64,000 bases of DNA, from positions 1 through 64,000 of IMG/VR virus record IMGVR_UViG_3300010412_000004; one strand, 5' to 3'. The notes below the pieces were generated by a model, which was given only the letters and a program-made list of their open reading frames with translations, was not told where the DNA came from and did not search any database. Below are positions 1,606-51,223 of the stretch, one piece after another (position 1 is the stretch's first letter; each line of letters begins with the position of its first letter). This DNA comes from a virus. Made by a program: the position numbers and the translations under genes.

Positions 1606-1956
1606 ATACCTCCCGGACAAGGTACTGTTGTATTTGGACATCATACCTCGGTAGATGAAAATAATGATGAGGACTTTTTAACTAATTGGGAAGGAACAGG
1701 AACTATTTCTGGATCTGGAGACTCTGAAAAGTTAATAATCAACGAAGGTGAATATATGCAAATGATTTCACCTTGGAATTTAGGTGTTGGGAAGGCTAGA
1801 ATTACATTAAATAAATATATAGAAGGTTCAGGTCCCTCTATATCAACAAAGTATAAGACAGGTAATTCTGTGGCTAATTGTGAGTCAGATACATGGCATG
1901 ATTACTCTACTTACTTTATGTGTCAGGGTTATTTTTTGGTTAGGTTAGAGAGATAA
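1..1956 (+). CDS. Ser/Thr-rich (mucin-like) putative virion fibre protein, 5' end outside the window, with a ~115 aa globular C-terminal domain
   Basis: Frame 1 reads open from base 1 (TLSTTTSSFSTTTSS...) into the ORF-track segment 1531..1956. About 535 codons are almost only T/S with periodic L/F/Y. Confidence 0.8.
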   Translation, partial: TLSTTTSSFSTTTSSFSTTTSSFSTTTSSTLSTLSTTTSSYSTTTSSYSTTTSTYSTLSTTTSSFSTTTSSYSTYSTTTSSYSTTTSSTLSTLSTTTSSYSTTTSSTFSTLSTTTSSYSTTTSSTLSTLSTTTSSLSTTTSSYSTTTSSTLSTLSTTTSSYSTTTSSTLSTLSTTTSSFSTTTSSYSTLSTTTSSYSTLSTTTSSYSTLSTTTSSYSTTSTTLSTLSTTTSSLSTTTSSLSTTTSSLSTTSSTLSTLSTTTSSFSTTTSSYSTTTSSTYSTLSTTTSSTYSTLSTTTSSFSTTSSTLSTLSTTTSSSSTTSSTLSTTSSFSTTSSTLSTFSTTTSSFSTTTSSSSTTSSTYSTLSTTTSSYSTTSTTFSTLSTTTSSFSTTTSSFSTTTSSSSTTSSTYSTLSTTTSSFSTTTSSLSTTSSTYSTLSTTTSSSSTTSSTYSTLSTTTSSYSTTSTTLSTLSTTTSSFSTTTSSFSTTSSTYSTLSTTTSSFSTTSTTFSTLSTSSSTTTSSSTTSSSSTLSTTTTIPPGQGTVVFGHHTSVDENNDEDFLTNWEGTGTISGSGDSEKLIINEGEYMQMISPWNLGVGKARITLNKYIEGSGPSISTKYKTGNSVANCESDTWHDYSTYFMCQGYFLVRLER

Positions 1957-1959
1957 CAA

Positions 1960-19520: not shown

Positions 19521-22151
19521 TTAATAATTTAAATCATAAATTTTGTTACTCTTTTTACCTACCCATTCCTCTTCTTTCCTAATTACTTCTTCCTTCAAAT
19601 ACCAATTTCCATTAATAGGAGTGAACTCAAACTCCATTTCAAGTGGTACTATTATCCATTTATATTTATCCCTTATATCTTTAGTTGCTACCTGTTCTAT
19701 TGTTTCACATACCATATCTTGTTCTGGTGGGTATGTGTCCGTTATCATACTATCATGTATTTGTCCAGGTTGTCCACTCTCCCATCCCTCTTCTATGGAT
19801 ATTTGGTCAATCTTATTACATGACCAAAGTAGACAATGGAATGCCGTACCTTGAATAGGGGTGTTGATTATGATATTTCTGGTTAAATATCCAGACCTTC
19901 TATGACCAAAGAAAGTTTCTACATATCCTGTTTGTAGATATTCTTTAATTACCTTTTCCTGCCATCTTTTAGTATATTTATATTTGTCCCAGTAGGCTTT
20001 TTCTACTTCTTTACAATGATCCTCAAATCTAGGATATGTACCTATATTTTTTGACATTAGGTGGTCTAACATTGGCTGACCTTCTGTTGTGGTCAGTCCT
20101 CCTTCAACTACATTTCTCCATAGATTTTCAGCACATGCCTTGTACCAAGATCCATAGAGTTGAGGGAATGTCCAATTATTTTTTCCATAGAATCTAACCT
20201 TAGAGTCCACAAGTTTTGGTAGAAGTAGAAATAATTCACAGCATACGTCTCTGTGCATATCCGTACCTTTTTGGTAAAGATATTTTATCCACTCAGGATC
20301 TTCTGTGTAGCACCCAGCTATTCTAACTTCCATGGAGGAATAATCACTCTCTATAAATCTAAAATCCTCCGAGGGTTTAATTCCTGACCTGCAATATTCT
20401 TTTGCTTCCTCATCTCTCACAGGGATATTGTGGATATTAGGATCACTTGAGCTACTTCTAAAAGTTCTAGCTGTTGTAAGATTATAAAAGGGATTGATTT
20501 TGCCCTCGAACTCCTCTTGGAAGAATTGATGGAGGTAGGTGTCTCGTATTTTTTTAAGTTTTCTCCACTTTAGTATTAGATTAGTAAAGTTTGAATTTAT
20601 TGCAGAAAGGGACTCTTCATCAGTAGAGTATCCCTTTTTAGTTTCTCTGGTAGGTTTGTATTTGAGTAGGTCATATAGAAGATATTGGAGGTCTTTGCTA
20701 GAGTTATGATTTATAGGCTTTCCTGTGGAGGTTCTAAATTTATCAGCCTCGTTAGATTTGCTAATTAAACCATCTATCAAATCCATCCTTTTGGTTATGC
20801 CCTCTTTGATATCATTTAGATAGTTTGTGTCTACATTAAATCCTCTTAGTTGCATATGGTTAAAAGTGTGAATGGCATCATGAAATAATTCGTAGGCCTC
20901 TAATAGATGAGGATCTTTTTGTATTGTTGCCTTTTGTCTTAGGGTGAGGCTTTTACAAAATTTGGAATCCAGTCCACAATATAACATTGTTTCGTGAGAA
21001 GGAGCATCTTGAATTTTGTTGTATTCCTCATTTTCTGTTTTAAGGAAAGGTTCAACTTCGTCTTCATAACCTTCTATTCCAAAGTTAATATAGGTTTGAA
21101 ATTTGAGTCCTTTAGTTTCCTGTCTTGAGTCAATTATGTGGGAGGCTATCATTGAGCACCAGTCCACTCCTTTAGGATCACATCCAAGTATTACCTTAGA
21201 CCAGAGCATTTCAAATGCCATATTGTGGGCACTCTTTTTTATTCTGTCTTCTTCCCAAATTTCTATCAGCATTTTAGTTATTATATTAAGCTCTTCATTT
21301 TTCCAATATCCTGGTTTTTGAAAAGGGAAGGAGAAGGTATCTGTATTAGTAGATATACTAGCATAGTATATTTTATGGTCAGGTTTGAATGGTTTTTTGC
21401 CTGTGGTTTCATAATCAATCGCAATAGAAGGTTTATGTATCAATACGTTTCTAAGACTTTCCTCAACTTCATTTAGATTAGTGAGTACTCGAACTTTTTT
21501 TTCCATATTCTCATAATCGGGAAATTTATCTATCTTACTCCATTCTACAGCGTTATCCAAATCTCTAAGATAAGTGGTCCAGAGGTTATCATTCTTTGAG
21601 TCCCTATAAGGAGCCGAAGGGTGATACAGAGGGATTATGTATGATTTAAATTTTTGATCTGGTATATTATATCCTCTCCATCTTGTGATGTTCCTTTTTT
21701 TGAATCTATACATAAAAAAGGATTTGGTCGCCGCACTACCCATCAACCAGATGTATTTAGGTTTAGTATCCTCAATGGCTTTTAATACCCAGGGCCTACA
21801 GAATTTTATCTCCCTCTCTAATGGGGTTCTGTTCTTAGGTGGTCTACAGTTTATGGCATTAATCTTATTACAGTCCTCATGAAGATTAATTCCTCTTTCC
21901 TCGAGCAGGCGTTCAAAAAATTGTCCTACATCCCCTACGAGCTCGTCGTTTAGGGAGTCTTCAGTGGCTCCTGGACTTTCGGCTATTATTAATATATCTC
22001 TGTAACCTTTACCACCCACAGGTATTTTAGGACTTTTTACATTCTTATTCAAACCACATTTATTGCAATCTGGTTCTCCAGGTTTATCGTAAAGTATTTG
22101 GTCCTTGCTCCTAGGAGCTTTTTCTCTTTTGAATTTGAAGAATGTTTTCAT
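19521..22151 (-). CDS. polA: Family A DNA polymerase with N-terminal family-4 uracil-DNA glycosylase-like domain (SPO1-type architecture)
   Basis: UDG: CNKC, AESPG, NCRPP.NRTP, YHPS. Exonuclease: DYET, HNMAFE, YCGLD. Polymerase: DYSSMEVR, R...K....F...YG, QIHDS. Confidence 0.95.
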   Translation of the reverse strand: MKTFFKFKREKAPRSKDQILYDKPGEPDCNKCGLNKNVKSPKIPVGGKGYRDILIIAESPGATEDSLNDELVGDVGQFFERLLEERGINLHEDCNKINAINCRPPKNRTPLEREIKFCRPWVLKAIEDTKPKYIWLMGSAATKSFFMYRFKKRNITRWRGYNIPDQKFKSYIIPLYHPSAPYRDSKNDNLWTTYLRDLDNAVEWSKIDKFPDYENMEKKVRVLTNLNEVEESLRNVLIHKPSIAIDYETTGKKPFKPDHKIYYASISTNTDTFSFPFQKPGYWKNEELNIITKMLIEIWEEDRIKKSAHNMAFEMLWSKVILGCDPKGVDWCSMIASHIIDSRQETKGLKFQTYINFGIEGYEDEVEPFLKTENEEYNKIQDAPSHETMLYCGLDSKFCKSLTLRQKATIQKDPHLLEAYELFHDAIHTFNHMQLRGFNVDTNYLNDIKEGITKRMDLIDGLISKSNEADKFRTSTGKPINHNSSKDLQYLLYDLLKYKPTRETKKGYSTDEESLSAINSNFTNLILKWRKLKKIRDTYLHQFFQEEFEGKINPFYNLTTARTFRSSSSDPNIHNIPVRDEEAKEYCRSGIKPSEDFRFIESDYSSMEVRIAGCYTEDPEWIKYLYQKGTDMHRDVCCELFLLLPKLVDSKVRFYGKNNWTFPQLYGSWYKACAENLWRNVVEGGLTTTEGQPMLDHLMSKNIGTYPRFEDHCKEVEKAYWDKYKYTKRWQEKVIKEYLQTGYVETFFGHRRSGYLTRNIIINTPIQGTAFHCLLWSCNKIDQISIEEGWESGQPGQIHDSMITDTYPPEQDMVCETIEQVATKDIRDKYKWIIVPLEMEFEFTPINGNWYLKEEVIRKEEEWVGKKSNKIYDLNY

Positions 22152-24011: not shown

Positions 24012-24174
24012 GCATCTCCTTTACCTTCAATATATTTACCGCTCCTTTATTATGAAAAAAGGACACCAGGCGGTAATATCCTGGGTAGCCTTTCTTAAAT
24101 ACAAATTCTTTCATCTTCTCCTCAGCTTTAAGATTGTTCATTTGAGGGAAGTTACCTGCTTGGTAGATTATCAT
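23956..24174 (-). CDS. Small MI[IL]YxA[GA]-family protein, copy 1, translationally coupled to dpdA
   Basis: MIIYQAG...RLVSFF; ATGA overlap at 24171-24174. Confidence 0.7.
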   Translation of the reverse strand: MIIYQAGNFPQMNNLKAEEKMKEFVFKKGYPGYYRLVSFFHNKGAVNILKVKEMHDEKTFGPGDNRCSKSDK

Positions 24175-25418
24175 TTGAATAAATCAAATTTTTCTTGTTT
24201 ATGTTGTTTGAAGGCCCAAGGCCACTTTGGCACACTATTTTGTAGGTCTATATAGTACATGATATTGAGCTCATCCCTGAGTTTGTAGCTGTTGGCGAGT
24301 CCTTTTTCTATTACTATTTCTATTTCTCTGGATTTATCTCCCTTTTTGCCTTTAATCCATCTTTCATTCTCTCCAAGTGTATAGTCTCCTGGAACAACTT
24401 TGTATTCTGATTTTCCAAGTTTATATCCTTTTTTATTGAAGTAATCTAAGATGTATAACCGTTCCGCCTTGGAGTAGGTAAGAATATGTTTCCCTTCAAT
24501 CTCCTTCTTTTGAGGAGATCTATCTGATACGGTAACATTGTGAGCATTTCTGGCATAATCAAATTTACCGCCTCTGGTTTTTGGTACACATACGATCCCA
24601 TATTTACCAAATTTAACCCAACTGGTACTGTCAACACTATACCAAGGGTACCTTGTAAGTAATCCTGCCGAAGTAACTGCAAATCCATGAACTTTAACTT
24701 TTGGCATTCCCATGTCATCTGTGAGCATCTCACTCCATATCTTATCTAATCCTTGGTATATCACATTTTCTGGATTAGGTATAATTCCTCCTATGGCAAT
24801 ATAATCATGTCCCCTATCTAGATACATTTTTAACCATTCTGGGGAATTACCAAAGTGCCATACTGGAATAGGTTTTAGTCCTTTGCTTTCCATATATTGT
24901 TGGTTGTACCAAGTTTCTTCTGCATTATTGATCACATCTAGGTTAGCGTAGACTTCTATATAAGGGAGGTATTTTTTGATGAAAAGAACATACTGCCTTC
25001 TATATTTGATATAATGATCAGATTTTAGATAAGAGTAATCATCATTCTTTCTGTCACCAAGGAAACTTCCCATATAGGTATGTGCTCCTCCCTTATGGGA
25101 CCTCATGTGTTTATTATAGAGGCTAGGTGCTCCACTATCTACGAATATTTTAAGGTCTTTTGGAGTAGTTACGGAGTCAGGTTTTAATTGAGATACTTCA
25201 TTTTCTACCGTTCTTATTTTTTCTGGAACTGTTCCTTTTTCCACCATTACCCTCATATCATATTTTTGAATTGTTTTGATGTAATCTCCGGTTCTATCAA
25301 ACCTTATACCAAGGTCTAGTACTCTTTTTACCTCATCAGTACTTGGCCAAATATTACTTCTCCCGGCGTGTTCTCTGGAGAATCCTCTAGGATATATCTT
25401 CATAGTGCTTTTATACAA
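24171..25418 (-). CDS. dpdA: DpdA-like DNA 7-deazaguanine transglycosylase (TGT superfamily)
   Basis: IFVDSGA, YANLDVI, PIPVWH, YIAIGG, KVHGFA, YPWYSVDSTSW; clustered with folE, queD and queE. Confidence 0.85.
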   Translation of the reverse strand: MYKSTMKIYPRGFSREHAGRSNIWPSTDEVKRVLDLGIRFDRTGDYIKTIQKYDMRVMVEKGTVPEKIRTVENEVSQLKPDSVTTPKDLKIFVDSGAPSLYNKHMRSHKGGAHTYMGSFLGDRKNDDYSYLKSDHYIKYRRQYVLFIKKYLPYIEVYANLDVINNAEETWYNQQYMESKGLKPIPVWHFGNSPEWLKMYLDRGHDYIAIGGIIPNPENVIYQGLDKIWSEMLTDDMGMPKVKVHGFAVTSAGLLTRYPWYSVDSTSWVKFGKYGIVCVPKTRGGKFDYARNAHNVTVSDRSPQKKEIEGKHILTYSKAERLYILDYFNKKGYKLGKSEYKVVPGDYTLGENERWIKGKKGDKSREIEIVIEKGLANSYKLRDELNIMYYIDLQNSVPKWPWAFKQHKQEKFDLFK

Positions 25419-26422
25419 TCCAACATATTTTTAATGGCTTGACTTCCATCTAAAATCATTTTATTTTGTAGTTTATTAAGATATTTTCTAAAGTATTTCT
25501 CCTGTTTTTCATCTCTTAATATATTAATGATTTTATCCACACACTCGTCAAAGGTTTTGAATCTAAAAGGTCGTGGATATAATTCTTCATAACTCAGTCT
25601 ATTAGGAACTAAAGGGATACAACCAGACATCACCGATTCCTGCATAGCTATTCCCCAGGTTTCCTGTCTGGAAAAAGATACAGCTATTTTTGATGCCTGT
25701 AGTATATCATAATACTTCTCTTTGGTATTACATATCAACTTAGTTTTTACAAAATCATAATGAGGGAAAATAGGTTTAATTGTCTTCTCTAAGGCGTCAA
25801 AATAGGAGGGTTCTTTTTCAGGATCTAGTCTATGAGGAAATACAATCATATTCATTTTATGGGTATCTACTAACCACTCTGGGTATATTGGCAGACCGGT
25901 AACTGCTATTTTATGACTCAACACTTCTCTTTTTTCCATTAACAATCTTTTATGAAAATCAGTAGCCACAAAAATTTTGTCAACAAGAGTTGTCCATCCT
26001 TTTTCTATATGAGATGCCCAGTAGTCCATCCCCATTCTATGTAGAAAATCATGTTCATCATATGTGCCTGCATGAAGTATTCCACATATATTTATATCCA
26101 ATCTTAAAGCATCTCTAATGTAGGCCAACATTTCAATTCCAGGAAACCATAAATCATGAAATAAAAAGGTATCCTTATCTCTTATTACTCCCTTATCAAT
26201 TAACCTACATATTTCTCTGAGTTGGGCGGCCTTAAATAAGTTCGTTCCTATAATGTCAAGAAAAGATCCTTGCCGTATTTTGTGTGTAATAGGGTCAGGG
26301 TAAATAGTGATATAATCTTTTTCTACCTCGAGCCCATTTGCTTGGAACTCTCTTGGGAACCATTTATTCCACTGAGCAGAGTATCTTTCCTCTAAACTTT
26401 CTATGGGCACATTAATTATCAT
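25400..26422 (-). CDS. GT-B (family 4-like) glycosyltransferase
   Basis: FPHRLDPEK, S..QETWGIAMQES...GC.PLVP. Confidence 0.85.
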   Translation of the reverse strand: MIINVPIESLEERYSAQWNKWFPREFQANGLEVEKDYITIYPDPITHKIRQGSFLDIIGTNLFKAAQLREICRLIDKGVIRDKDTFLFHDLWFPGIEMLAYIRDALRLDINICGILHAGTYDEHDFLHRMGMDYWASHIEKGWTTLVDKIFVATDFHKRLLMEKREVLSHKIAVTGLPIYPEWLVDTHKMNMIVFPHRLDPEKEPSYFDALEKTIKPIFPHYDFVKTKLICNTKEKYYDILQASKIAVSFSRQETWGIAMQESVMSGCIPLVPNRLSYEELYPRPFRFKTFDECVDKIINILRDEKQEKYFRKYLNKLQNKMILDGSQAIKNMLDCIKAL

Positions 26423-26441
26423 AATTCGCCTCTTTGTTTCA

Positions 26442-26478
26442 ATTAAACACTAAACTCATTGAAATTACAAGATAAATT
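26442..26478 (-). promoter_or_regulatory. Promoter of the AATTTATC-TTG family upstream of GT-dpdA
   Basis: AATTTATC TTGTAA-17-TTTAAT. Confidence 0.55.
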
Positions 26479-26485
26479 TTTAGGT

Positions 26486-27847
26486 TTAAATTATTCTTAA
26501 CCTAGCACATATGGCATAGAATATAGCCGCATCTTCTATGGGGAGATGGTAATCTTTAGTATCCTCCTTAATTGCCTCAGCGATCTTCCATCCATTTCTA
26601 TTGCTTAAATATGTCATCATATATTCAATGTAGATACTTTTTAATTTATAAAGTTGAAACCATTTTATATCCTCCTCTTTTATGTCCCTTTTCGTATGTA
26701 TTCTATCAAGCAAAAAAGAGTCAGGCATAAAACTTGGTATTAGTCTCATCGGTCTATTGTTTAGGGTATGTCCTTTGAGGTGAGAGGTTTCATAAATCTT
26801 TGTTCCATGATATACCTGAAAGAATTGACCAAGACCTCCTTCGGTTCCATTTGTTTGTACTCTTCCATAAAGGTCATTCATTTTAAACCCATATTTAGAT
26901 AAGAATTCCCCAGTGGTGTTTAAAGTCTTTAACGTTTCACCAGGATAGAATGTCATGGTTAACCAAAAGATGGGCACATCACACTTCTCAGCCAAATCTA
27001 TGCATCGTGCGACAGGTGACTTACCCATATCACTTCCTAGGTTCTTATCAGCAGTTTCCAGACCTACCTCGATTAATCTTACTCCTGCATCATGAAGTAT
27101 TTTGGTACCATACATAGAGATAAACCTATTTACTGTGGAAACTTCTCCTAAGGCTATGAAATTGAAGCCACCCATTTGGTATGCCCAATGTAATATGTTG
27201 TATGCCCTTTGAGTATCAAAAAAGAAATCTTCATCAGTGAAATGAATATTGTGGTATCCAAAATATTTACACCTTACGAGCATAGTGTGGATTTGTTCTA
27301 AATCCAAAACTATTCTTTTTCTGTTTGTATTTACTGTGGAAGGACAGAAGGAGCAACCTCTTGGACATCCATATGAAGTAAAGAGAGGGTATACCTTTCC
27401 CGAATATTTTCTCAAGTGCATATCACAATCGCTCAACGTGAGGAATCTTAAATATTGATATGTATAAGGATAGTAGAACATTCCATCTTTAATCATATAA
27501 TCTTCCACCTTAAACATATCTAAATCTAGACTTTGGATGAGGGGATAGTATCCAAAAAAGCTGGGTTTAACAGGTAGAAATTTATCAAGCATTTTGCAGA
27601 GTTCGATTTGAGGGTAGGACCATAGAGCTACTAAATAATTATTAGATTTTGGTAGGTCATCTATTCCTGCCATGGTGAAATTTTCTTCTAACCATACAAT
27701 CTCTTCTTCTTTATTCATTAGGTAATAATTGTAGAGTATATAAGGTAAGTAGCAAAAACTACCCCTATTGACTTCAGGAGAGGTTGGGTCAATTATTACT
27801 ATATCCGCCTTAGTAGGGCGTATCCTCCCATTCTGCTCCATTTTCAT
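26486..27847 (-). CDS. Radical SAM protein, probable B12-binding class
   Basis: TSYGCPRGCSFC, IHFTDEDF, IEVGLET, YPGET; ~150 aa N-terminal domain. Confidence 0.85.
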   Translation of the reverse strand: MKMEQNGRIRPTKADIVIIDPTSPEVNRGSFCYLPYILYNYYLMNKEEEIVWLEENFTMAGIDDLPKSNNYLVALWSYPQIELCKMLDKFLPVKPSFFGYYPLIQSLDLDMFKVEDYMIKDGMFYYPYTYQYLRFLTLSDCDMHLRKYSGKVYPLFTSYGCPRGCSFCPSTVNTNRKRIVLDLEQIHTMLVRCKYFGYHNIHFTDEDFFFDTQRAYNILHWAYQMGGFNFIALGEVSTVNRFISMYGTKILHDAGVRLIEVGLETADKNLGSDMGKSPVARCIDLAEKCDVPIFWLTMTFYPGETLKTLNTTGEFLSKYGFKMNDLYGRVQTNGTEGGLGQFFQVYHGTKIYETSHLKGHTLNNRPMRLIPSFMPDSFLLDRIHTKRDIKEEDIKWFQLYKLKSIYIEYMMTYLSNRNGWKIAEAIKEDTKDYHLPIEDAAIFYAICARLRII

Positions 27848-28324: not shown

Positions 28325-28906
28325 TTATCCTCCCATTATTAAGGACATTTCAATCCATCTCATGGCTTCATCACGAGCTTTAAGGTCATCCATTAAAACT
28401 CCACTCAAAGCTGAAGTTGTCATACCAGACCCACTTTGTTGTTTAACCCCTCTACATCTCATACAACCGTGGATAGCTCGCATGGCCACTATGGTACCAT
28501 ATGGTTTAATGTGACGGTCAAATTGTTTGATTACATCATCACATAATGTTTCCTGTAGTTGTGGTCTAAGGGAGTAATGATTGATTAGGCGTGCAGGTTT
28601 TGATGCACCTACGAGAAGTTCTTTAGGTATGTATCCTAACCACGCTTTTCCTTCAAAGGGTAGAAAATGGTGGGAACACCATGATACAAAGTGTATGGTG
28701 TCGAACATGATAAGTTGCTTGTAATCTCGATCATTTGGGAAGGCTTTGAAATCTGTAAATTCCTTCCCTACATTCGCAAATATTTCTTGGTACATTCGCT
28801 CAAGTCTTTGGGGTGTTTCACGAAGGTTGGGGTCAGATAAATCCAACCCCAACTCTTCGCTGATGACTTTACTGAAGTACCAAGCCATCGACTGGCTCAT
28901 GGTCAC
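28325..28906 (-). CDS. folE: GTP cyclohydrolase I
   Basis: ETPQR, CSHHFLPF.G, RPQLQE, HGCM.CRGV. Confidence 0.95.
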   Translation of the reverse strand: MTMSQSMAWYFSKVISEELGLDLSDPNLRETPQRLERMYQEIFANVGKEFTDFKAFPNDRDYKQLIMFDTIHFVSWCSHHFLPFEGKAWLGYIPKELLVGASKPARLINHYSLRPQLQETLCDDVIKQFDRHIKPYGTIVAMRAIHGCMRCRGVKQQSGSGMTTSALSGVLMDDLKARDEAMRWIEMSLIMGG

Positions 28907-28909
28907 CTC

Positions 28910-29419
28910 TTACTTGGCGTCTTCTTCCTCAGTGGTTGGTTCCGGTTCACCTTTTTCCTTGGCGATCCGTTTCTTGGCAATGTTGATGTAGATTGCGATC
29001 CGTTTCTTGATGAATTCTGTATCAGCCTGACCCCTCTCGTTGTAACGTTTGGAGAAGGCTGCCGCGATTTCATCCTCGGACTTGCCCGCCAAAACCATGT
29101 CGTAAGCCAGTTTTTCATTGGAAGGACCAGAAGGCCGTGTGGACTTCTTCTTTTTCTTTGCCTCCATCTTTTCGATTTCCTCAGGGGAGGGGTCCTTCCC
29201 TTCCACGATGCCGTTGTAGAAGACAACAACGGTTTCAGGCAGTTTTTTCTCCTCTTCACTTCCTTCCGCGACGGATTCTACTGCCTTCAGGAAACTCTCG
29301 ACCAGGTCTTCCTTCTTGACCCCAACGGTCTTGAGCTTCACGGGGATGGCACCACTAGAGTTCAGGATACCAATCTCCTTTCGCAGGTCGTTAGCATTTA
29401 CGAATTGTGGACTTAACAT
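28910..29419 (-). CDS. Hypothetical Lys/Glu-rich protein with its own promoter
   Basis: aaggaggt RBS; higher third-position GC than neighbours. Confidence 0.7.
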   Translation of the reverse strand: MLSPQFVNANDLRKEIGILNSSGAIPVKLKTVGVKKEDLVESFLKAVESVAEGSEEEKKLPETVVVFYNGIVEGKDPSPEEIEKMEAKKKKKSTRPSGPSNEKLAYDMVLAGKSEDEIAAAFSKRYNERGQADTEFIKKRIAIYINIAKKRIAKEKGEPEPTTEEEDAK

Positions 29420-29478
29420 AAATTACCTCCTTGTTCCATAAAAGATTAATATTATAGTGTTCTCCAGCCTATGCACAT

Positions 29479-29514
29479 ACTATAGAACAATTTAAAAGGT
29501 ATTGCAAGATAAAA
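29479..29514 (-). promoter_or_regulatory. Promoter of the TTATC-TTG family
   Basis: TTTTATC TTGCAA-17-TATAGT. Confidence 0.65.
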
Positions 29515-29554
29515 GTGTGTTAATTGGTGATATTTTTTAGGAGAACTATCCTGA

Positions 29555-30202
29555 TTATTTTTCTTCCTTTATATGTGCCAGTTTATGTAGCTGGAGATTT
29601 ATCTGAACCATATATAGTTTGTCTTTCCTCATCCAGGTCATTAGGTCATTTACGTTTAAACCAGGAGTTACTGGACTAAAGGCTATTCTTGGAGGACAAT
29701 TTTTGGATTCCTCGTAAACATGTTTTACTATTGATCTCGCCTGTTTGTAATCGCTAAAATTGGTAATTACAAATTTAAGAAAGTCCTCCGCGAGCATACT
29801 GTCTAACCATTTATTATCAAATTTCATACCTATTTTATAATCAACCACCCAGCAATCTACATATTCAAATATTTCCTCATTTTGTGGTAGTAATGATCCA
29901 TTTGTCTCGATAGTGATATTATGATCATTACTTTTTAATTGTTTCAAAAGAGGTAAAAGGTCCTCCTGCAGTAAAGGCTCTCCTCCTGTGAGTGTAACTT
30001 CGATTACACCTAATTTATCTACCTCATGGACAACCTGACTTACTCCCACTTCCTTACCACTATCTACACCCCAAGCATATTTAGTATCACAATAAGGACA
30101 ACTGAGATTACAACCAGCAAATCTAACAAAAGTAGCCCACACACCTTGACCAAGATAGTTTACTTCCCCTTGAATGGATGAAAAAATACTATATACTCTC
30201 AT
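29555..30202 (-). CDS. queE: 7-carboxy-7-deazaguanine synthase
   Basis: IFSSIQGE, FVRFAGCNLSCPYCDT, TGGEPLLQ, IETNG, LQLHK. Confidence 0.95.
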   Translation of the reverse strand: MRVYSIFSSIQGEVNYLGQGVWATFVRFAGCNLSCPYCDTKYAWGVDSGKEVGVSQVVHEVDKLGVIEVTLTGGEPLLQEDLLPLLKQLKSNDHNITIETNGSLLPQNEEIFEYVDCWVVDYKIGMKFDNKWLDSMLAEDFLKFVITNFSDYKQARSIVKHVYEESKNCPPRIAFSPVTPGLNVNDLMTWMRKDKLYMVQINLQLHKLAHIKEEK

Positions 30203-30576
30203 TTGAAATTTACCTCCATATAAGAGTTTTCAGTTTCCCATAATCTTAATCTGGTTATACAACTGATATTTATCACTTTAGGAAGGTCACCATAAAGTCT
30301 TTCGGTTATCCACATGAGTATGTTCTCACCTGTAGGATTTTCTATCTTTGTGTTTATACAGGAGTGATCAAGTTGGTCTATAATCATTTCTTGTACTGCC
30401 TTTTTGAGGTTAGAAAGGTCGGTAACCATTCCCTTCTCAGGAGTCTCTGTTTTCTGTATCCCCCCTTCCACCTCTACCTCTAATTTGTAGCTGTGCCCAT
30501 GTAACTCTTTACATTTACCTTCATGGTGTGGTAGATGGTGTGCCGCCTCAAATCTAAAAATTCTTCCTATTTTCAT
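30199..30576 (-). CDS. queD: 6-carboxy-5,6,7,8-tetrahydropterin synthase
   Basis: FEAAHHL, CKELHGHSY, LDH, NPTGEN, LWET. Confidence 0.95.
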   Translation of the reverse strand: MKIGRIFRFEAAHHLPHHEGKCKELHGHSYKLEVEVEGGIQKTETPEKGMVTDLSNLKKAVQEMIIDQLDHSCINTKIENPTGENILMWITERLYGDLPKVINISCITRLRLWETENSYMEVNFK

Positions 30577-38986: not shown

Positions 38987-39451
38987 TTATTTCTCGACGG
39001 TGATTCGACCTTTGTCGTCGATTTTGATCTTCCAGTTCTTGTTGGCACGAAGGTCAGCGATCGTTCCAGATACAGCGGCCTTATTTTTGTCAACAGGCCA
39101 TTCCTCTGGATTCTTTTCGTGCAGGGCTTCAGCCAGTGTAGCGGTGTCCCAGATACCTTCTTGGATCGCCTCGATGATCAGTGATCTCCTTGAAGGCATT
39201 CCGTTTTTGGTGCGTGTCCCCATTTCTTCTGCTGGGGTGGCTTCACCTTTTTCCTCTACAGGATCCTCCACAACCTCCTCGGCGTTTTCTGAGGTGTTGA
39301 TTTTGCAGAACTGATCATGGAGTTTTTCGATGAGGTCCTTCTTGAGGTAGCGTGTGGGTGGACGTGTTTGGAACGTCTTTTCATAGAGTTCCTGGAGCGT
39401 AGGTACCTTCTGTCCCTGAAGGTGTTTGAGGTAGTCTTGATTTGTCATCAT
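38987..39451 (-). CDS. Putative DNA-binding protein (winged-helix-like C-domain), paralogue of 47597..48043
   Basis: SRRSLIIE...LAE.L...NKAAVSGTIADL. Confidence 0.7.
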   Translation of the reverse strand: MMTNQDYLKHLQGQKVPTLQELYEKTFQTRPPTRYLKKDLIEKLHDQFCKINTSENAEEVVEDPVEEKGEATPAEEMGTRTKNGMPSRRSLIIEAIQEGIWDTATLAEALHEKNPEEWPVDKNKAAVSGTIADLRANKNWKIKIDDKGRITVEK

Positions 39452-39512
39452 TTTACCCTCCCTTCTCATTGTTAATGGGTTAATAAAGTTGCTTTCCTCT
39501 GCCTACAGTTAT

Positions 39513-46539: not shown

Positions 46540-47242
46540 GATGATATATTATTGTCTTGGTAGATTAGGAGGTGGACTTGATTGAATTGTTTTAGGTCTG
46601 GCGGCGGCTATTGAGTGGATTAATGGGAGGTGTAGGATTGTAAATGATATGGGTGGCTGGCAGGGAGGCTTTGGTATAGAATGGGAGGTTAATCAATCAT
46701 TCTTATCCTCATCTTTATTTCATTAAATGGATGAATTGATGTGGGAGGAGTGTAGGGAAGAGTTGAAATGGGAGATAATAATCAAGGTAGGGGTGGGGTG
46801 GGTGGGATGTGACGACCACCTGAGTATGGAAATGGTGGTCTGGCATACGAAACTTGAATCAATTTATCCAGCCCACCTTCCACTCATACCATTCCAATTC
46901 GAAATACTGGAACCACGAAGGGACGAGAAGGGTTGGGTCAGCCCAAACCTGACCTTCCCGTTGATGATATGGGAGACCGACCAGGTGTACCGAACCTTCC
47001 GCATCGCTCAGTTTGACCAGACCGCCCCATATGTAGCCAGACCATACCAGCTCAACCCATACCGAATCATATTTATTAAATATTATAAATTTACTAACTA
47101 TTAGTAATTTATTAAGTATGTTGTATTTACTTACTAAATAGTATTTAGTAAATATCATTTAGTAAATACTTGTATATTTACTAAATATTATAAAATTTAA
47201 TAAATGTTATTTAGTAATTAAATAAATTAAAATTACTTAATT

Positions 47243-47369
47243 TATGACAAAAAAAGTCATACTTTTTGACAAAAAATGTCAAAGCATTTATGTAATAATA
47301 ACAAGTATTTAACTAAAATTAAATACTTATTTAGAAAATAAATTGCCTCTTTTGACAAAAAAAGTAATT
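47243..47369. promoter_or_regulatory. Palindromic operator-like sites TGAC-N7-GTCA
   Basis: tatgac-aaaaaaa-gtcata (47243), tttgac-aaaaaat-gtcaaa (47265), imperfect copy at 47351. Confidence 0.6.
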
Positions 47370-47596
47370 AACTTATTTATAGCCATAAAATTATTTTTAA
47401 AATAATATGTAATTATCTTAAATACTTATACAATTTAAGACTTTGTTTTGTACTTTGTGCATACTTTTTGCAATAGTTATTAGCATGTCAAAGTCAACAG
47501 CTATATTAATATTGCTCGCTTGCTATAGTGCTTTCGTGCTTGCATTACTTGACTTCTTTACAGTCTACGCGAAGTAGACAGAAAGTGAAGGCAACT

Positions 47597-48043
47597 ATGT
47601 TAAGACACGAAAACACAATACAGAAAGTCTATGCAATGTATATTGACAAAGCAACGACTTTTAATGAAAAAGAAATTGCTTTACGCAAGTTACATAAACT
47701 TTGTGAAAAACACAAAGTCAACTTGCATAGACTTGTTAGTGACTGTACTTTAAATATTAACTATGCAGACAAAGTACAGTCAAAAGCTACTTCAAATGCT
47801 ATGTATGAAGCAGACAAAGCAAAAAGCAGACGTAGTTTAATAATTGAAATGTTACGTCAAAACATACATAGTAAGGACAGTATTGCAGAAGTACTGTCTG
47901 AAGTCTACGAAATTGCAGACTTCAAGACAAATAAGAAAGCAGTTGCAGGGACTTTGTATGACTTGCAGACTAACAAAGCATACTTTGACTATAAAGTATG
48001 TAAAGACGACAGACTTTCTTGCAATTTCAATGTGACTGTCTAA
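47597..48043 (+). CDS. Putative DNA-binding protein, sole gene of the island; paralogue of 38987..39451
   Basis: gaagg RBS; SRRSLIIE...IAEVL...NKKAVAGTLYDL; followed by its own terminator. Confidence 0.75.
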   Translation: MLRHENTIQKVYAMYIDKATTFNEKEIALRKLHKLCEKHKVNLHRLVSDCTLNINYADKVQSKATSNAMYEADKAKSRRSLIIEMLRQNIHSKDSIAEVLSEVYEIADFKTNKKAVAGTLYDLQTNKAYFDYKVCKDDRLSCNFNVTV

Positions 48044-48075
48044 TTGTTAAAAGTAGCACGAAAGCACTTAGCATA

Positions 48076-48116
48076 AAAAAATAAAACACTTTGAAGTCTA
48101 AAGTGTTTTATTTTTT
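48076..48116 (+). terminator. Long AT-rich terminator hairpin
   Basis: aaaaaataaaacacttt / aaagtgttttatttttt 17-bp stem. Confidence 0.75.
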
Positions 48117-48385
48117 GCTTGTTTACTGAAGCAAATTTATTTAATAAATAAATAATATTTAGTAAGTATATAATATTTAGTAAACCCCCCTCAATTTAGT
48201 TTATGAAGACCATTTAGTAAACAGCTACAGAGGGTCTGCCACAATATTCTGAGTAGAATTCATGAGGTCCTCAAAACCAATTCTTCCCGCCCTCCTCCAC
48301 ACTCAAATAATCTACTTGACAACCCTTTTACAGGTGTGTTACTTGTCTATTTCATTACCCTTACGCCTACGAAAGGAAACCTACC

Positions 48386-48985
48386 ATGCGAGATACCGAG
48401 ATGTATAAGCCAGTCCCAACCAAAGGCACTACCAAAGAGGGACTTAAGATTATTATGTTTGATGCCGTACAAAACTGCAGGGCTGAACAATGTCCAATAT
48501 TCAATGACTGCAAATACCTCAAGACCGGAAGGTGCACGGTTGAGATTAATTACCTCCGCGCCGTCTTTGACTCCGTTAACGATATGGTAGGGAAGGACAC
48601 TACACAGGGAGTCCTCAATAAGGTCACCCTCCACCTTCTACCCCTATTCCATCAGCTCATCCGTTTCCAAATCTACGCCTACTCCGTGCAAGATGTCTGC
48701 TACACTACTACAAGAGGGCAGATAAGGGCTCATCCAATATTCAAAGAGATAAGGGACACCCTCAGGTCCATTGAGAACACCCAAGCCTCAATGGGGATTG
48801 ATGGAGAATACATCCGAGCCTTGGGCTCCCTCGGGAGTGGGAGAAAGGGAAGGAGAGCCATTGAGGATGCCGTAAAGTATGGGGAGGACGGATTCAGGGA
48901 GAGGTGGCAGAAAGAGAACTTTGATGGTTCGGTGTTTCCTGAGGGAAGGGCTACCCATCCAAAGCGTTCCGCGAGAGGAGGATAA
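48386..48985 (+). CDS. Putative terminase small subunit
   Basis: Upstream of terL; TTRGQIRAHP resembles the P27-type G..K.NP motif; N-terminal Cys cluster. Confidence 0.6.
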   Translation: MRDTEMYKPVPTKGTTKEGLKIIMFDAVQNCRAEQCPIFNDCKYLKTGRCTVEINYLRAVFDSVNDMVGKDTTQGVLNKVTLHLLPLFHQLIRFQIYAYSVQDVCYTTTRGQIRAHPIFKEIRDTLRSIENTQASMGIDGEYIRALGSLGSGRKGRRAIEDAVKYGEDGFRERWQKENFDGSVFPEGRATHPKRSARGG

Positions 48986-49264
48986 ATGCTCAGATATTTA
49001 TTGGTGTTATTCATACTGCTGGCGAATCCAGTGATCTTACATTTGAAATGGACTACCCAAGCTCATTATGACAGGTATGAAGTGAGGGTCATGGATGACA
49101 GCGGGGTGCTTGACATATACCCTACAGACCTAGAAGAACTTGATTTAGACCTAAGAGACGATAGGATTTATGAGTTCACTATCGAAGGATATACCAATGG
49201 ATCATGGGATACCCTCATGTTCATGCGCTGGCATAGTGGATCGAAGGTTCTTCGGATAAAATAA
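48986..49264 (+). CDS. Small secreted or membrane-anchored beta-rich protein
   Basis: ggagg RBS; hydrophobic N-terminus. Confidence 0.55.
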   Translation: MLRYLLVLFILLANPVILHLKWTTQAHYDRYEVRVMDDSGVLDIYPTDLEELDLDLRDDRIYEFTIEGYTNGSWDTLMFMRWHSGSKVLRIK

Positions 49265-49345
49265 ACGCATATAACGTATGTATTGACATAAAATCGTTTA
49301 AAATTCATTGAATCAGCCTGTGGGCTTTTATAAGGATTTTTCACT

Positions 49346-51223
49346 ATGTTACAACGTGCAAATAGGTTTGAGGCAAGAAAGCCAATCCGTTTTACAGACG
49401 GTGCGGAGGGGATGATAAAGTGGGTGGAGGATTTTGTCTACCTCCCCATCTATCCCTATGTTAGTGAAGAGGATGAGATAGCACCAGTGGAGGCTTGGGT
49501 AAGGGTAGCTGATCTCCCAAAAGATCCTAATCCTAAGACTGGTCGCTCATATTGGAATATGTGGGATAACCAAAAGGAGATCCTCCGCAGAGCCCTTGTA
49601 ATGGAGGGGGGTAGGTTCATATATAGGTTGATAATTCTATGCTGGATGCGTGGGGAGGGAAAGAGTTTGTTGGCCTGCCTCATTCAGCTTTGGAAGTTCT
49701 TCAACTGGACTCGCCAGAAAATTATGCTTGGAGCTAACAGTAAAGATCAGGTAAAGTTCGTTCATTATGATATCATGAGGGATATCATTCTAAACAGCCC
49801 CGAATTGATAGGGGTGGTCGGGGAGAGAAACGTCCAGGAGAAAGAGATTAGGATCTTGGATAGGAACACTGGAGGGGTGGACTGTTTAATCAGGAGCATA
49901 TCCACCGCCAGTGGTATTGTAAGTAACATCACCGGATACACTTTCTCTGAAATGTTTGCGATGAAGAACCCGACCTTCTTCGTGCAACTTGATGGAAGTA
50001 TCAGAAATATACCAAACGCTCTTGGAGTGATTGACAGCACGGTATCTGATAAAGTTCACATATTGCATCAAATGTATAAGAACTGGGTGAAGGGGAAACT
50101 CAGGACCTGTTTCTACAGCTATAGATACACAAAGGAGGCTGATCCTAATAGGTACTGGAACCCTAATATGGATGATGACCAACTCAATGATTACCAAGTA
50201 AAGTTCCCATTTGGAGAATTTGATAGATACTTTTTGAACCTGTGGGAGGCTGGAACAGTTAGAGTATTTAGTGAAGTTGATGTGAGAGCCACTGGGTATA
50301 TTGGAGCGGAGGGATCCTATTTTAATCACAACTCAGTGAAAAATCTGTTGGAGGAGATCGTCAAAAAAGAGGAGGTTTTGAGTGATACTAAAGGAAAAGG
50401 GTGGGTGGAGAGTAGCTTAAATGAAAGGAAAAGAATAGATGAGTTAGAGAAATCGCTCATCCCTGTGGAGAACTTATACAGTCTTAAATCAGGAATGGAC
50501 CGCCAATTCTATTGCCCATTAGAGGATTTAATAAAAGTTGGAGATTTATTCGATACTGATTGGGCTATATTGTTTGGTTTAGATATGGGTGACCCTACCG
50601 CCATTAGAGGACAGGCTAGGAGCATTTTAGTAGGGTTGGCTAAGGGATTGATAGGTTCACGTACCAATCCTTGGGCGGATACACTCAAAATACCTGACCT
50701 TAAGTTCATTTATCTGCTTATATTATTCACTAACGTGGAGAATCACAGCACAGATATGATTAAGAAGATAGTTGATGAGGCTAATGAGGAATATGATGGA
50801 ATAGATACGTTCTGTGCAGAAAGATATGGAACGTGGGATATGACTCAATGGTGTGAGGAAAGGAGCATCAACTTCGAGCCTACTTATCCTAATTATGGAC
50901 GCCAAAGGGATGCCTTCAAAGAGGCCTATACCGTGGTAAAGGAGGGAAGGTTTAAAACTCCTGATATACCTGTGGCGGGATCTAAAACAGATAATTTATT
51001 CCTAGAGGAATTAAGTATATTTGATCATGATCCTATTAAGAAATGGTTTGGTAGCCCTGAAAAAGAAGAGAAAGGAGGGACACAGGACGATTCGGTATAT
51101 AGCTTAGGATGGTGTATGTATGGAGGACGTATGTTAGGACCTCAGGACTTTAGAGTTCGAAAAAATGTATCCAGCTTTGGAATGTTCATACCTGCCACTG
51201 GATTAGTCGGAAAATATACTTAA
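49346..51223 (+). CDS. terL: Terminase large subunit
   Basis: Q-motif WDNQKE, Walker A WMRGEGKS, GANSKDQ, nuclease GLDMG and TQDDSV. Confidence 0.9.
   Translation: MLQRANRFEARKPIRFTDGAEGMIKWVEDFVYLPIYPYVSEEDEIAPVEAWVRVADLPKDPNPKTGRSYWNMWDNQKEILRRALVMEGGRFIYRLIILCWMRGEGKSLLACLIQLWKFFNWTRQKIMLGANSKDQVKFVHYDIMRDIILNSPELIGVVGERNVQEKEIRILDRNTGGVDCLIRSISTASGIVSNITGYTFSEMFAMKNPTFFVQLDGSIRNIPNALGVIDSTVSDKVHILHQMYKNWVKGKLRTCFYSYRYTKEADPNRYWNPNMDDDQLNDYQVKFPFGEFDRYFLNLWEAGTVRVFSEVDVRATGYIGAEGSYFNHNSVKNLLEEIVKKEEVLSDTKGKGWVESSLNERKRIDELEKSLIPVENLYSLKSGMDRQFYCPLEDLIKVGDLFDTDWAILFGLDMGDPTAIRGQARSILVGLAKGLIGSRTNPWADTLKIPDLKFIYLLILFTNVENHSTDMIKKIVDEANEEYDGIDTFCAERYGTWDMTQWCEERSINFEPTYPNYGRQRDAFKEAYTVVKEGRFKTPDIPVAGSKTDNLFLEELSIFDHDPIKKWFGSPEKEEKGGTQDDSVYSLGWCMYGGRMLGPQDFRVRKNVSSFGMFIPATGLVGKYT

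What the first reader, a model, noticed from the sequence alone, without database searches (positions are those of the whole stretch)
47064..48184. Sharply bounded 1.1 kb island avoiding GG/CC and GAT/GAG: possible modification-free segment at the genome end
Seen: only 4 GG and 2 CC dinucleotides in ~1120 bp by manual count, although GG/CC is abundant elsewhere in the window. Within gene 47597..48043 I find no CC, GAT, ATC, GAG or CTC. All 10 Asp codons are GAC despite the AT-rich genome, all 9 Glu codons are GAA, and there is no Pro, no Trp and one Gly. The surviving GGs are the RBS, one Lys-Asp junction and the Gly conserved in the paralogue. Even the terminator is a long A/T stem. The island sits between the early arm and the terminase, where genome ends or pac sites often lie. 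Known: phage DpdA enzymes replace G in short sequence contexts. Inference: the avoided words reveal the modification target (GG and GA[GT]), and this segment stays unmodified so that host RNA polymerase or terminase can read it. An alternative is purging of restriction sites from first-injected DNA.
Basis: partly seen in the sequence, partly recalled or inferred. Interest (0 to 1): 0.9.

Follow-up and report, generated by a model that had tools for sequence, protein, structure and literature searches.

The report
Word-free gene cassette in deazaguanine phage
An uncultured phage that chemically modifies its guanines keeps one small gene unit next to its DNA-packaging genes free of GG/CC, GAT and GAG, even rewriting the protein without proline or tryptophan. 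Relatives do the same with their own banned words, so something in infected cells reads these two- or three-letter words, most likely the phage's own guanine-modifying enzyme.

Summary
The island 47064-48184 has 4 GG and 2 CC (36 expected), 3 GAT/ATC (39 expected) and 2 GAG/CTC (14 expected). The signal lies in the 635-bp core 47441-48075. Redrawing the gene's synonymous codons from genome usage gives 43±5.5 banned words; 3 are present and 1 is the minimum possible.

It is neither an import nor chance. About 20 relatives (TerL 47-57% identical) carry one GG/CC-free stretch of 0.4-1.2 kb, 0.8-2.8 kb upstream of terL, and only one per complete genome. Each holds one small basic ORF from at least three unrelated protein families.

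The banned set differs by lineage: GG/CC in most, GG/CC+GAT+GAG in this genome and its closest relative, and only GGA/GGT in another.

Six of seven near-complete DpdA-encoding genomes have an island, and the one DpdA-less genome has none. The units are also unusually rich in hairpins on both strands.

The best reading (about 40%) is a control unit kept free of the target words of the phage's own 7-deazaguanine enzyme. No modification data, genome ends or expression data were available. CAjan and iggy, whose motifs are known, have no such island.

Earlier notes of this scan report the same rule in this clade and in other phage families. I found nothing in print.

The parts
47064..47240 (.). Left AT-rich array of TTTAGTAA(A)/TTTACTAA repeats. 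It includes the left arm (47072-47118) of an imperfect terminal inverted repeat.
   Evidence: Arms 47072-47118 and 48138-48184 are 47 nt long and 85% complementary. Five of the six exact TTTAGTAAA copies in the window lie at the island edges.
47242..47368 (+). Three copies of an operator-like element, TGAC-N6/7-GTCA, each carrying TTGACA or ATGACA followed by an A run (47242-47260, 47264-47282, 47350-47368).
   Evidence: Direct-repeat family D6. The relative G011 has the same kind of TTGACA-N-TGTCAA palindromes upstream of its island gene. The sigma-70 consensus scan found no more sites than chance.
47441..47596 (+). Leader of the unit. It holds the 5' arm of the stem that brackets the gene (47527-47540) and the ribosome-binding GAAGG, one of the four surviving GG.
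   Evidence: Perfect 14-nt inverted repeat 47527-47540 / 48055-48068. It pairs as a stem of about 19 bp in both the minimum-energy and centroid folds. GG at 47590.
47597..48043 (+). Island gene of 148 aa (pI 9.1). It has an N-terminal DUF2786-like helical hairpin and a C-terminal winged-helix-like domain, no Pro, no Trp and one Gly.
   Evidence: Codon and word counts. 58 family representatives. AlphaFold model with pLDDT 88. Weak Foldseek matches to the winged helices of Fur/PerR/Zur, FoxP and histone H1. DUF2786 matches 5 of 42 family members.
48055..48068 (+). 3' arm of the stem that brackets the gene.
   Evidence: Analogous stems bracket the island ORF in G011 (18 nt, 100%), L058 (30 nt, 97%) and L013 (52 nt, 85%).
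48076..48116 (+). Terminator-like hairpin made almost entirely of A/T, followed by a T run.
   Evidence: 17-nt perfect arms with a 7-nt loop. It folds in both predicted structures. The consensus terminator scan, which requires G-C pairs, does not call it.
48138..48221 (.). Right array of TTTAGTAA repeats with an 18-bp period; it is the right arm of the terminal inverted repeat. The last copy lies just beyond the GG/CC-free zone.
   Evidence: Contigs from three other runs (X14, X18, X20) lack one 18-bp unit at 48129-48168.
38987..39469 (-). Paralogue of the island gene written in ordinary composition (160 aa, with Pro, Gly and Trp), in the early arm next to a DUF932 gene.
   Evidence: 39% identity over the C-terminal 76 aa, E 4e-11. 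RNA fold z is -1.5, against -8.6 for the island unit.
24171..25418 (-). DpdA-type DNA guanine transglycosylase, the candidate reader of the banned words.
   Evidence: phrog_887, E 1.2e-37. tblastn to the DpdA of CAjan and iggy gives 31-36% identity, E 1e-28 to 2e-29. PF01702 was not detected by the genome search.
28325..30576 (-). 7-deazaguanine precursor genes: FolE (28325-28906), QueE-like (29555-30202) and QueD-like (30199-30576). No QueC was found.
   Evidence: Pfam GTP_cyclohydroI, E 1.2e-44. phrog_2076 at 2.4e-40 and phrog_2389 at 1.2e-19. QueC family absent.
48386..51223 (+). Packaging genes to the right of the island: a 199-aa ORF in the small-terminase position (48386-48985), a 92-aa ORF, and terL (49346-51223).
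   Evidence: terL matches phrog_9 at 1.8e-11. 119 relatives were found in IMG/VR. The 199-aa ORF has no family match, and its role is inferred from position only.

Best explanation
The island is a self-contained control unit. It consists of a small basic winged-helix protein gene with its leader, a stem that brackets the gene and an A/T terminator, all flanked by inverted arrays of iteron-like repeats and by operator-like palindromes.

Its DNA is kept free of the two- or three-letter words that the phage's own guanine-directed modification enzyme recognises. That enzyme is the DpdA-type transglycosylase, fed by FolE, QueD and QueE. Under this reading the unit is the one part of the genome that can never carry 7-deazaguanine.

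Proteins that read bases in the major groove could then work on it whatever the state of the rest of the genome. Candidates are the host RNA polymerase, the unit's own DNA-binding protein and perhaps the terminase. A likely moment is on the incoming, fully modified chromosome.

Shown:
- The word ban reaches codon and amino-acid level.
- It is kept in diverged relatives at the same place.
- The banned set differs between lineages.
- The DpdA pathway is present.

Inferred:
- That the banned words are the DpdA targets.
- That modification would harm the unit's function.
- That the unit is expressed first.
For: 1. The ban is near the theoretical limit: 3 banned words against 42.8±5.5 under synonymous redrawing, with 1 the minimum possible.

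2. About 20 TerL relatives have one GG/CC-free run of 400-1186 bp at 26-41% GC, ending 0.8-2.8 kb upstream of terL. Each complete genome has exactly one. The noncoding flanks are significant by themselves, with P from 1e-5 to 1e-8.

3. The cargo belongs to at least three protein families with no profile similarity, so the rule belongs to the place and not to a gene.

4. The banned set varies by lineage.
- G000 and G011 share DpdA at 64% identity, while their island proteins are only about 40% identical. Both ban GG/CC, GAT/ATC and GAG/CTC; in G011 the counts are 4/49, 4/52 and 1/18.
- G001 to G004 ban GG/CC only.
- G007 has a distant DpdA and bans only GGA/TCC and GGT/ACC. Its island protein has 11 Gly, all GGC or GGG, against 67% GGA+GGT in the rest of the genome.

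5. Published DpdA motifs are of the same kind: GA and GGC in CAjan (PMC7544227), GA in iggy (PMC10484667). Insertion happens after replication (PMC10516641).

6. DpdA is present in six island-bearing near-complete genomes (G000, G001, G002, G003, G007, G011). It is absent from the one complete genome without an island, G006.

7. Weak support: 6-bp palindromes that hold the banned words are less avoided than the others in 8 of 8 genomes of the DpdA group. The order is reversed in G006.
Against: - No modification data exist for any of these phages, so the link between banned words and modified words is untested.
- CAjan and iggy, whose motifs are known, have no GA-free island. Neither do RHEph06, a Stenotrophomonas phage or Alteromonas R7M.
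- G012 encodes DpdA (98% complete) but has no island.
- G001 has a DpdA as distant as that of G007, yet bans the same GG/CC as G002 and G003.
- DpdA lineage and phage lineage, and hence host, cannot be separated with these genomes.
- The palindrome test fails on the positive controls CAjan and iggy.
- CCGG and GGCC are still depleted genome-wide in G000, at 0.36 and 0.63.
- Earlier notes of this scan report GG/CC-free cassettes in phage families for which no DpdA is recorded in the notes I read. I did not check this.
- The reading does not explain the very dense hairpins.
Confidence: 0.4

Rival explanations
1. The unit is a nuclease-proof or PAM-proof pre-early cassette, like the first-step-transfer DNA of T5. 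It would enter or act before the rest of the genome is protected. It therefore must not contain the short words read by a host nuclease or CRISPR PAM reader, or by a frequent-cutting nuclease the phage uses against host DNA. The repeat and hairpin arrays would act as an entry pause or as binding sites.
For: - In T5 only the first-step-transfer region is sensitive to EcoRI and to CRISPR. Its injection stop region is packed with repeats, inverted repeats and palindromes (bioRxiv 10.1101/866236).
- Here the unit lies next to the packaging genes and is bounded by inverted repeat arrays.
- It is unusually rich in hairpins on both strands. RNA fold z is -8.6 and -7.5 for G000 and -14.4 and -10.8 for G011. 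Against codon-order shuffles z is -7.1 and -8.5, while three control genes lie near 0.
- Words of two to three letters are the size of CRISPR PAMs. This rests on my own knowledge and was not tested here.
Against: - No physical genome end, entry order or expression timing could be examined, because only contigs were available.
- The breakpoints of the circularly assembled relatives do not fall at the island.
- The cargo proteins are basic, probably DNA-binding proteins (pI 8.7-10.2). They are not acidic DNA mimics, and they show no likeness to T5 A1, A2 or Dmp.
- Cutting anywhere else in the genome would still kill the phage, unless entry happens in two steps.
- If modification protects banned-type words elsewhere in the genome, there is no need to remove exactly those words here.
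Confidence: 0.25
2. The constraint acts on the transcript. The RNA would have to lack GG and CC, and be tightly folded, in order to escape a ribonuclease or an RNA-binding regulator, or to avoid internal ribosome-binding-like sites and their masking.
For: - The unit folds far better than shuffled sequence, and slightly better on the sense strand: -8.6 against -7.5, and -14.4 against -10.8.
- A stem that brackets the ORF recurs with different sequences in G000, G011, L058 and L013.
- In G000 one of the few surviving GG is the ribosome-binding site.
Against: - Both GG and CC are banned whichever strand carries the ORF.
- Many relatives have no GG at all, not even at the ribosome-binding site, across 1.0-1.2 kb including 200-790 bp flanks.
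- Both strands fold almost equally well, which points to Watson-Crick inverted repeats in the DNA.
- The extra bans on GAT/ATC and CTC have no obvious RNA reading.
Confidence: 0.1
3. The unit is a mobile or invertible cassette bounded by terminal inverted repeats. Its odd composition would come from a donor or from its own mode of transfer.
For: - The terminal inverted repeats are 47 nt long, 85% complementary in G000 and 91% in G011.
- The whole unit lies in opposite orientation relative to terL in G000 and G011, and in either orientation among the other relatives.
- An 18-bp repeat unit varies in copy number between samples.
Against: - There is a single copy per genome, always at the same place.
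- There is no transposase or recombinase in the unit, and no target-site duplication is visible.
- No contig without the island or with it inverted was seen in four runs.
- The island protein has diverged about as much as TerL between G000 and G011.
- No genome is known to me that avoids GG/CC globally.
- The recoded and ordinary forms occur within one protein family, and the ordinary paralogue lies in the same genome.
Confidence: 0.05

Closest known systems
Motif-specific 7-deazaguanine modification of phage DNA by DpdA (CAjan: GA and GGC, PMC7544227; iggy: GA, PMC10484667)
   Same: The genome encodes a DpdA homologue (31-36% identical to the tested enzymes) together with FolE, QueD-like and QueE-like genes. 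The published motifs are two- to three-letter words starting with G plus a purine, the same kind as the words banned here.
   Different: No motif-free island has been described for those phages, and I found none in CAjan or iggy. In this phage neither the modification nor its motif has been measured. QueC is missing, and a second radical SAM gene and a weak glycosyltransferase-like gene lie in the cluster.
First-step-transfer (pre-early) DNA of phage T5/BF23 with its injection stop region (bioRxiv 10.1101/866236)
   Same: [quoted passage not shown]
   Different: The T5 segment is about 10 kb, lies inside a long terminal repeat at a proven genome end, and encodes A1, A2 and Dmp. Here the unit is about 1 kb with one winged-helix-like gene, and no genome end or two-step entry is shown. 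The ban is on two- to three-letter words, not on a 6-bp site.
Restriction-site avoidance and CRISPR PAM depletion in phage genomes
   Same: Selection removes short DNA words that a nuclease system reads.
   Different: Those effects, as I know them, are genome-wide, partial and concern whole recognition sites. This ban is local (one island per genome) and nearly absolute. It concerns any occurrence of a two- to three-letter word and reaches the amino-acid composition of the protein.
DUF2786 (PF10979) plus winged-helix small proteins of phages and plasmids
   Same: The island protein's family carries the DUF2786-like N-terminal helical hairpin (5 of 42 members match, best E 2.5e-6). It also has a C-terminal three-helix, two-strand domain resembling winged helices.
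   Different: The function of the family is unknown. The island copy scores below the Pfam cut-off (E 0.015). It belongs to a recoded sub-group without Pro or Trp and with a single conserved Gly.

Membership tests
Phage DpdA / 7-deazaguanine DNA modification system (genome context) | A DNA guanine transglycosylase of the DpdA family | tested here: met
   phrog_887 at E 1.2e-37. tblastn to the DpdA of CAjan and iggy gives E 1e-28 to 2e-29. Pfam TGT was not detected by the genome search.
Phage DpdA / 7-deazaguanine DNA modification system (genome context) | Precursor synthesis genes FolE, QueD, QueE and QueC | tested here: inconclusive
   FolE, QueE-like and QueD-like genes are present. QueC was not found. 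Published QueC-less phages are proposed to make other derivatives (PMC10516641).
Phage DpdA / 7-deazaguanine DNA modification system (genome context) | 7-deazaguanine bases present in virion DNA at a defined short motif | not testable with these tools
   Only assembled contigs of public runs were available. There are no raw long reads and no mass spectrometry.
T5-type first-step-transfer region | Lies at a physical genome end, inside a terminal repeat | not testable with these tools
   Contigs cannot show molecule ends. The assembly breakpoints of the circularly assembled relatives are not at the island.
T5-type first-step-transfer region | Cis-acting stop region rich in repeats, inverted repeats and palindromes | tested here: inconclusive
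   Repeat arrays, palindromes and excess hairpins are present. Their function is unknown, and no DnaA-box pattern was looked for.
T5-type first-step-transfer region | Pre-early genes of the A1/A2/Dmp kind | tested here: not met
   The unit holds a single 148-aa gene for a DUF2786-like plus winged-helix-like protein. It has no other Pfam or PHROG match.
Classical restriction-site avoidance | Depletion of whole recognition sites of 4-8 bp across the genome | tested here: not met
   The ban covers every GG/CC, GAT/ATC and GAG/CTC whatever the context, and it is confined to one island.
Transposable element bounded by terminal inverted repeats | Terminal inverted repeats | tested here: met
   47 nt, 85% complementary in G000 and 91% in G011.
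Transposable element bounded by terminal inverted repeats | Transposase, target-site duplication, several copies or empty sites | tested here: not met
   No such gene is present. No duplication is visible at 47063/47064 or 48184/48185. There is one copy per genome. No joint lacking the island was found.
Winged-helix DNA-binding proteins (island gene product) | A three-helix bundle followed by a beta-hairpin wing | tested here: inconclusive
   The AlphaFold model (pLDDT 88) has helices 78-88, 93-103 and 109-126 and strands 131-134 and 140-143. Foldseek matches to Fur/PerR/Zur, FoxP and histone H1 domains have probability 0.85-0.97 but E values of only 0.2-0.7. DNA binding was not tested.

The most novel reading that the evidence does not exclude
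The banned words are the recognition code of each phage's own DpdA-type guanine-modifying enzyme: GGN+GAK in this phage and G011, GGN in most relatives, GGW in G007. The cassette would be a control unit that must stay unmodified, a kind of genome feature not described in print. If so, the target motif of an uncharacterised DNA-modifying enzyme could be read directly from a genome sequence. It would also mean that modified phage genomes need a stretch of plain DNA to start or steer infection.
Probability: 0.35. Interest if true: 0.9.

Novelty: categorically new. Interest (0 to 1): 0.8.

Why it matters
A ban on a two- or three-letter DNA word strong enough to remove three amino acids from a protein, held over long divergence and changing its vocabulary between lineages, means that some factor in infected cells reads those words on about 1 kb of DNA. 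No described mechanism predicts this.

If the factor is the phage's own guanine-modifying enzyme, two things follow. Enzyme specificities could be read from sequence alone. And hypermodified genomes would need an unmodified control segment, which bears on how such phages start infection, package DNA and evade defence.

If the factor is a nuclease or a CRISPR PAM reader, the islands mark the genes a phage must protect first.

Either way the islands are easy to find by computer. They give clear predictions that can be tested with enzymes cloned from metagenomic sequence.

Tried and rejected
The contigs of the closest homologues (P0002 to P0004, 69-72% identical) could not be fetched.
- Searches of the INPHARED phage collection with the island DNA, TerL and the island protein found nothing.
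- Neither the IMG/VR scan nor the JGI metagenome scan with the island protein found a relative.
- Read laying returned only contigs. This gives no information on termini or transcript ends. The RNA-library contigs touch 46809-47051 and 48007-48190 but not the ORF, so I draw nothing on expression from them. No joint without the island or with it inverted was seen.
- The sigma-70 promoter scan found fewer sites than shuffled sequence, and the terminator scan found none.
- The genome-wide search for TTGACA followed by an A/T run showed no pattern.
- Rfam gave only sub-threshold chance matches.
- The fold from the four-sequence alignment was poor (pLDDT 49) and was replaced by the 42-sequence fold.
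- hhalign found no relation between the three island protein families.
- The PDB sequence search gave nothing meaningful.
- Chance or a low-GC artefact is rejected.
- Recent import from a genome that avoids these words is rejected: relatives keep islands in place, and the ordinary paralogue lies in the same genome.
- The test of whether palindromes holding the banned words are less avoided is kept only as weak evidence, because the known-motif controls CAjan and iggy do not show the effect.
- Looking for motif-free islands in five cultured DpdA phages gave none. iggy has only a modest 835-bp run free of CGA/TCG at the record ends.
Full report
**Setting.**
- The window is the first 64 kb of a single 79,012-bp virus contig (CheckV completeness 91%).
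- Genes from about 8.4 to 46.5 kb run leftward. They encode replication and recombination functions: a family A polymerase fused to a UDG-like domain, a clamp, a clamp loader, RecA-like and gp32-like proteins, helicases and a primase.
- The same arm holds a 7-deazaguanine cluster: a DpdA-type transglycosylase at 24171-25418, FolE, QueE-like and QueD-like genes.
- QueC was not found.
- The DpdA is 31-36% identical to the experimentally studied enzymes of CAjan and iggy, with E values of 1e-28 to 2e-29.
- From 47.5 kb onward the genes run rightward; terL is at 49346-51223.
- The island therefore sits at the divergent junction between the two arms.
- The phage occurs nearly unchanged in marine sediment, mangrove, soil and sludge metagenomes from seven studies.

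**The observation.**
There are four GG and two CC in 1121 bp of 25.5% GC, where about 20 and 17 are expected. Elsewhere in the window GG and CC are over-represented.
- GAT/ATC is 3 against 39 expected and GAG/CTC is 2 against 14. GAC/GTC and GCA/TGC are enriched about threefold.
- The signal lies in the 635-bp core 47441-48075. There GG/CC is 4 against 36.7, GAT/ATC is 0 against 23.3 and GAG/CTC is 1 against 12.2, and none of 2000 shuffles reached these values.
- The 14-16% GC flanks are too poor in G and C to be significant for GG/CC alone.
- I kept the protein fixed and redrew synonymous codons from the genome's own usage. This gives 42.8±5.5 banned words (lowest of 5000 draws: 25). The gene has 3, and 1 is the lowest number possible.
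- The protein has no Pro, no Trp and one Gly.
- In 600-bp windows the island scores 0.06, against a genome mean of 1.23±0.21.

**Anatomy.**
- The unit is bounded by imperfect inverted arrays of TTTAGTAA(A) repeats: arms 47072-47118 and 48138-48184, 47 nt, 85% complementary.
- Inside, in order, lie three TGAC-N6/7-GTCA elements, a leader and the 148-aa ORF. A perfect 14-nt inverted repeat brackets the ORF (47527-47540 and 48055-48068), and an A/T hairpin with a T run follows.
- The protein family has 58 representatives.
- With a 42-sequence alignment it folds at pLDDT 88 into an N-terminal helical hairpin (DUF2786-like) and a C-terminal winged-helix-like domain.
- The protein is basic, with pI 9.1.
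- A paralogue of ordinary composition lies at 38987-39469.

**Relatives.**
- TerL finds 119 related IMG/VR contigs at 47-57% identity.
- About 20 of them have a GG/CC-free run of 400-1186 bp at 26-41% GC, ending 0.8-2.8 kb upstream of terL. Examples are L012/L013 (1186 bp), L054 (1145 bp), L075 (1023 bp) and L074 (1016 bp).
- In whole genomes there is exactly one such run, and the next longest is 60-150 bp.
- The noncoding flanks are significant by themselves.
- Each island holds one small basic ORF without Pro, Gly or Trp, on either strand.
- The ORFs fall into at least three families with no profile-profile similarity. The rule therefore belongs to the locus and not to a gene.
- The G000 protein family itself comes in two forms: an ordinary one, and a recoded one without Pro or Trp and with one conserved Gly.
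- A recoded member lies in the island of G011, an 87.8-kb genome.
- G011 shares the whole architecture of G000, in the opposite orientation to terL. It has terminal inverted repeats (47 nt, 91%), TTGACA-N-TGTCAA palindromes, a perfect 18-nt stem bracketing the ORF, and an A/T terminator.

**The banned set differs between lineages.**
- Most relatives ban only GG/CC; GAT and GAG are at normal levels.
- G011 has the DpdA closest to G000 (64% identity) and bans the same extended set as G000: GG/CC 4/49, GAT/ATC 4/52, GAG/CTC 1/18. It does so although the two island proteins are only about 40% identical.
- G007 has a distant DpdA and bans only GGA/TCC and GGT/ACC over about 1 kb (1 and 4 found, against 25 expected each). 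Its island protein contains Pro and Trp.
- All 11 Gly in the G007 island protein are encoded by GGC or GGG, whereas the rest of that genome uses GGA or GGT for 67% of Gly.
- This shows that a specific short word is being read, and that the word has changed during evolution.

**Link to DpdA.**
- Among near-complete genomes, G000, G001, G002, G003, G007 and G011 encode DpdA and have an island.
- G006 lacks DpdA and has no island.
- G012 encodes DpdA but has no island.
- Published DpdA motifs (GA and GGC; GA) are words of the same style.
- Against a general rule, CAjan and iggy, whose motifs are known, and three other cultured DpdA phages have no word-free island.
- One indirect test compared 6-bp palindromes that hold the banned words with those that do not. 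It points the expected way in all eight genomes of the DpdA group and the opposite way in G006. It fails on the CAjan and iggy controls, so I give it little weight.

**A second oddity: dense hairpins.**
- The units fold far better than shuffled sequence. The z-score is -8.6 for G000, -14.4 for G011 and -4.5 for G002, against -1.5 for the ordinary paralogue.
- The effect holds against codon-order shuffles of the coding sequence alone: -7.1, -8.5, -4.7 and -3.9 for four island genes, weaker (-1.4 to -2.9) in four other island genes, with three control genes near zero and the ordinary paralogue at -2.0.
- It is almost as strong on the antisense strand. It therefore reflects dense Watson-Crick inverted repeats, even inside the gene.
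- None of the explanations accounts for this well.
- It recalls the repeat- and palindrome-rich injection stop region of T5. It would also fit a very stable, processed transcript.

**Weighing the explanations.**
- The main reading is a unit kept free of the phage's own modification words. It explains the two- to three-letter size of the words, their G-purine style, their change between lineages, their strand symmetry, the inclusion of noncoding flanks and the association with DpdA. I put it at about 0.4.
- The T5-like reading, first-acting DNA that must avoid a nuclease or PAM reader, explains the position, the arrays and the hairpins. It needs two-step entry or some equivalent, for which there is no evidence (0.25).
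- A transcript-level constraint fits the folding but not the symmetry, and not the absence of GG at the ribosome-binding site in the relatives (0.1).
- A mobile cassette fits the inverted repeats and the two orientations, but nothing else (0.05).
- Chance and low GC content are excluded.

**Earlier notes of this scan.**
- Notes by other agents, which are unchecked AI notes, report the same rule in what appear to be relatives of this clade: uncultured 89-91 kb DpdA phages.
- They also report it in unrelated phage and phage-plasmid families.
- I treat these as leads and not as evidence.
- They agree with what I found here independently.
- They also warn that the cause may be broader than DpdA.
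- I found no description of such islands in the searchable literature.

Noticed in passing
window 48129-48168: One 18-bp unit of the right repeat array is missing in contigs from three other runs (soil DNA, sludge DNA and a soil RNA library). The array therefore varies in copy number between populations, while the rest of the island is identical.
   Followed up: partly
G007 (record of L042), whole 80,338 bp: The tetranucleotide CTAG does not occur at all in this 80-kb relative (o/e 0.00). It is also rare in G006 (0.17) and G001 (0.25). This looks like strong avoidance of a host restriction site.
   Followed up: no
G006 (record of L072), whole 89,318 bp: The one relative without DpdA avoids 6-bp palindromes far more strongly (mean o/e 0.12-0.29) than the DpdA-encoding relatives (0.44-1.03). 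GGA/TCC is depleted there (0.59), whereas it is enriched (1.25-1.69) in all the others.
   Followed up: partly
window 19521-22151 (-): The family A DNA polymerase carries an N-terminal uracil-DNA-glycosylase-superfamily domain (Pfam UDG, E 3.6e-17) ahead of its 3'-5' exonuclease and polymerase domains.
   Followed up: no
window 25400-27847 (-): Between dpdA and folE lie a 340-aa ORF with a weak glycosyltransferase-like match and a 453-aa radical SAM protein, and QueC is absent. The guanine modification may therefore be something other than preQ0.
   Followed up: no
window 1-5000: This stretch has strongly skewed, repetitive composition: GC skew down to -0.66, a 1.6-kb run free of CCC/GGG, and tandem repeats at the contig start. 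Notes of other readers describe Ser/Thr-rich tail proteins here.
   Followed up: no
L124/L125 (Pseudomonas phage iggy) 59889-60628 and 1-95: An 835-bp run free of CGA/TCG (18-21 expected) spans the record ends at the divergent junction of iggy. It is only modestly above the background of such runs in other genomes.
   Followed up: no
L110 7291-7438 (G011): A tandem array of thirteen 8-bp units (TAGTAATG/TAGTAGTA type) lies inside the GG/CC-free zone, upstream of the operator-like palindromes. G000 has no counterpart.
   Followed up: no
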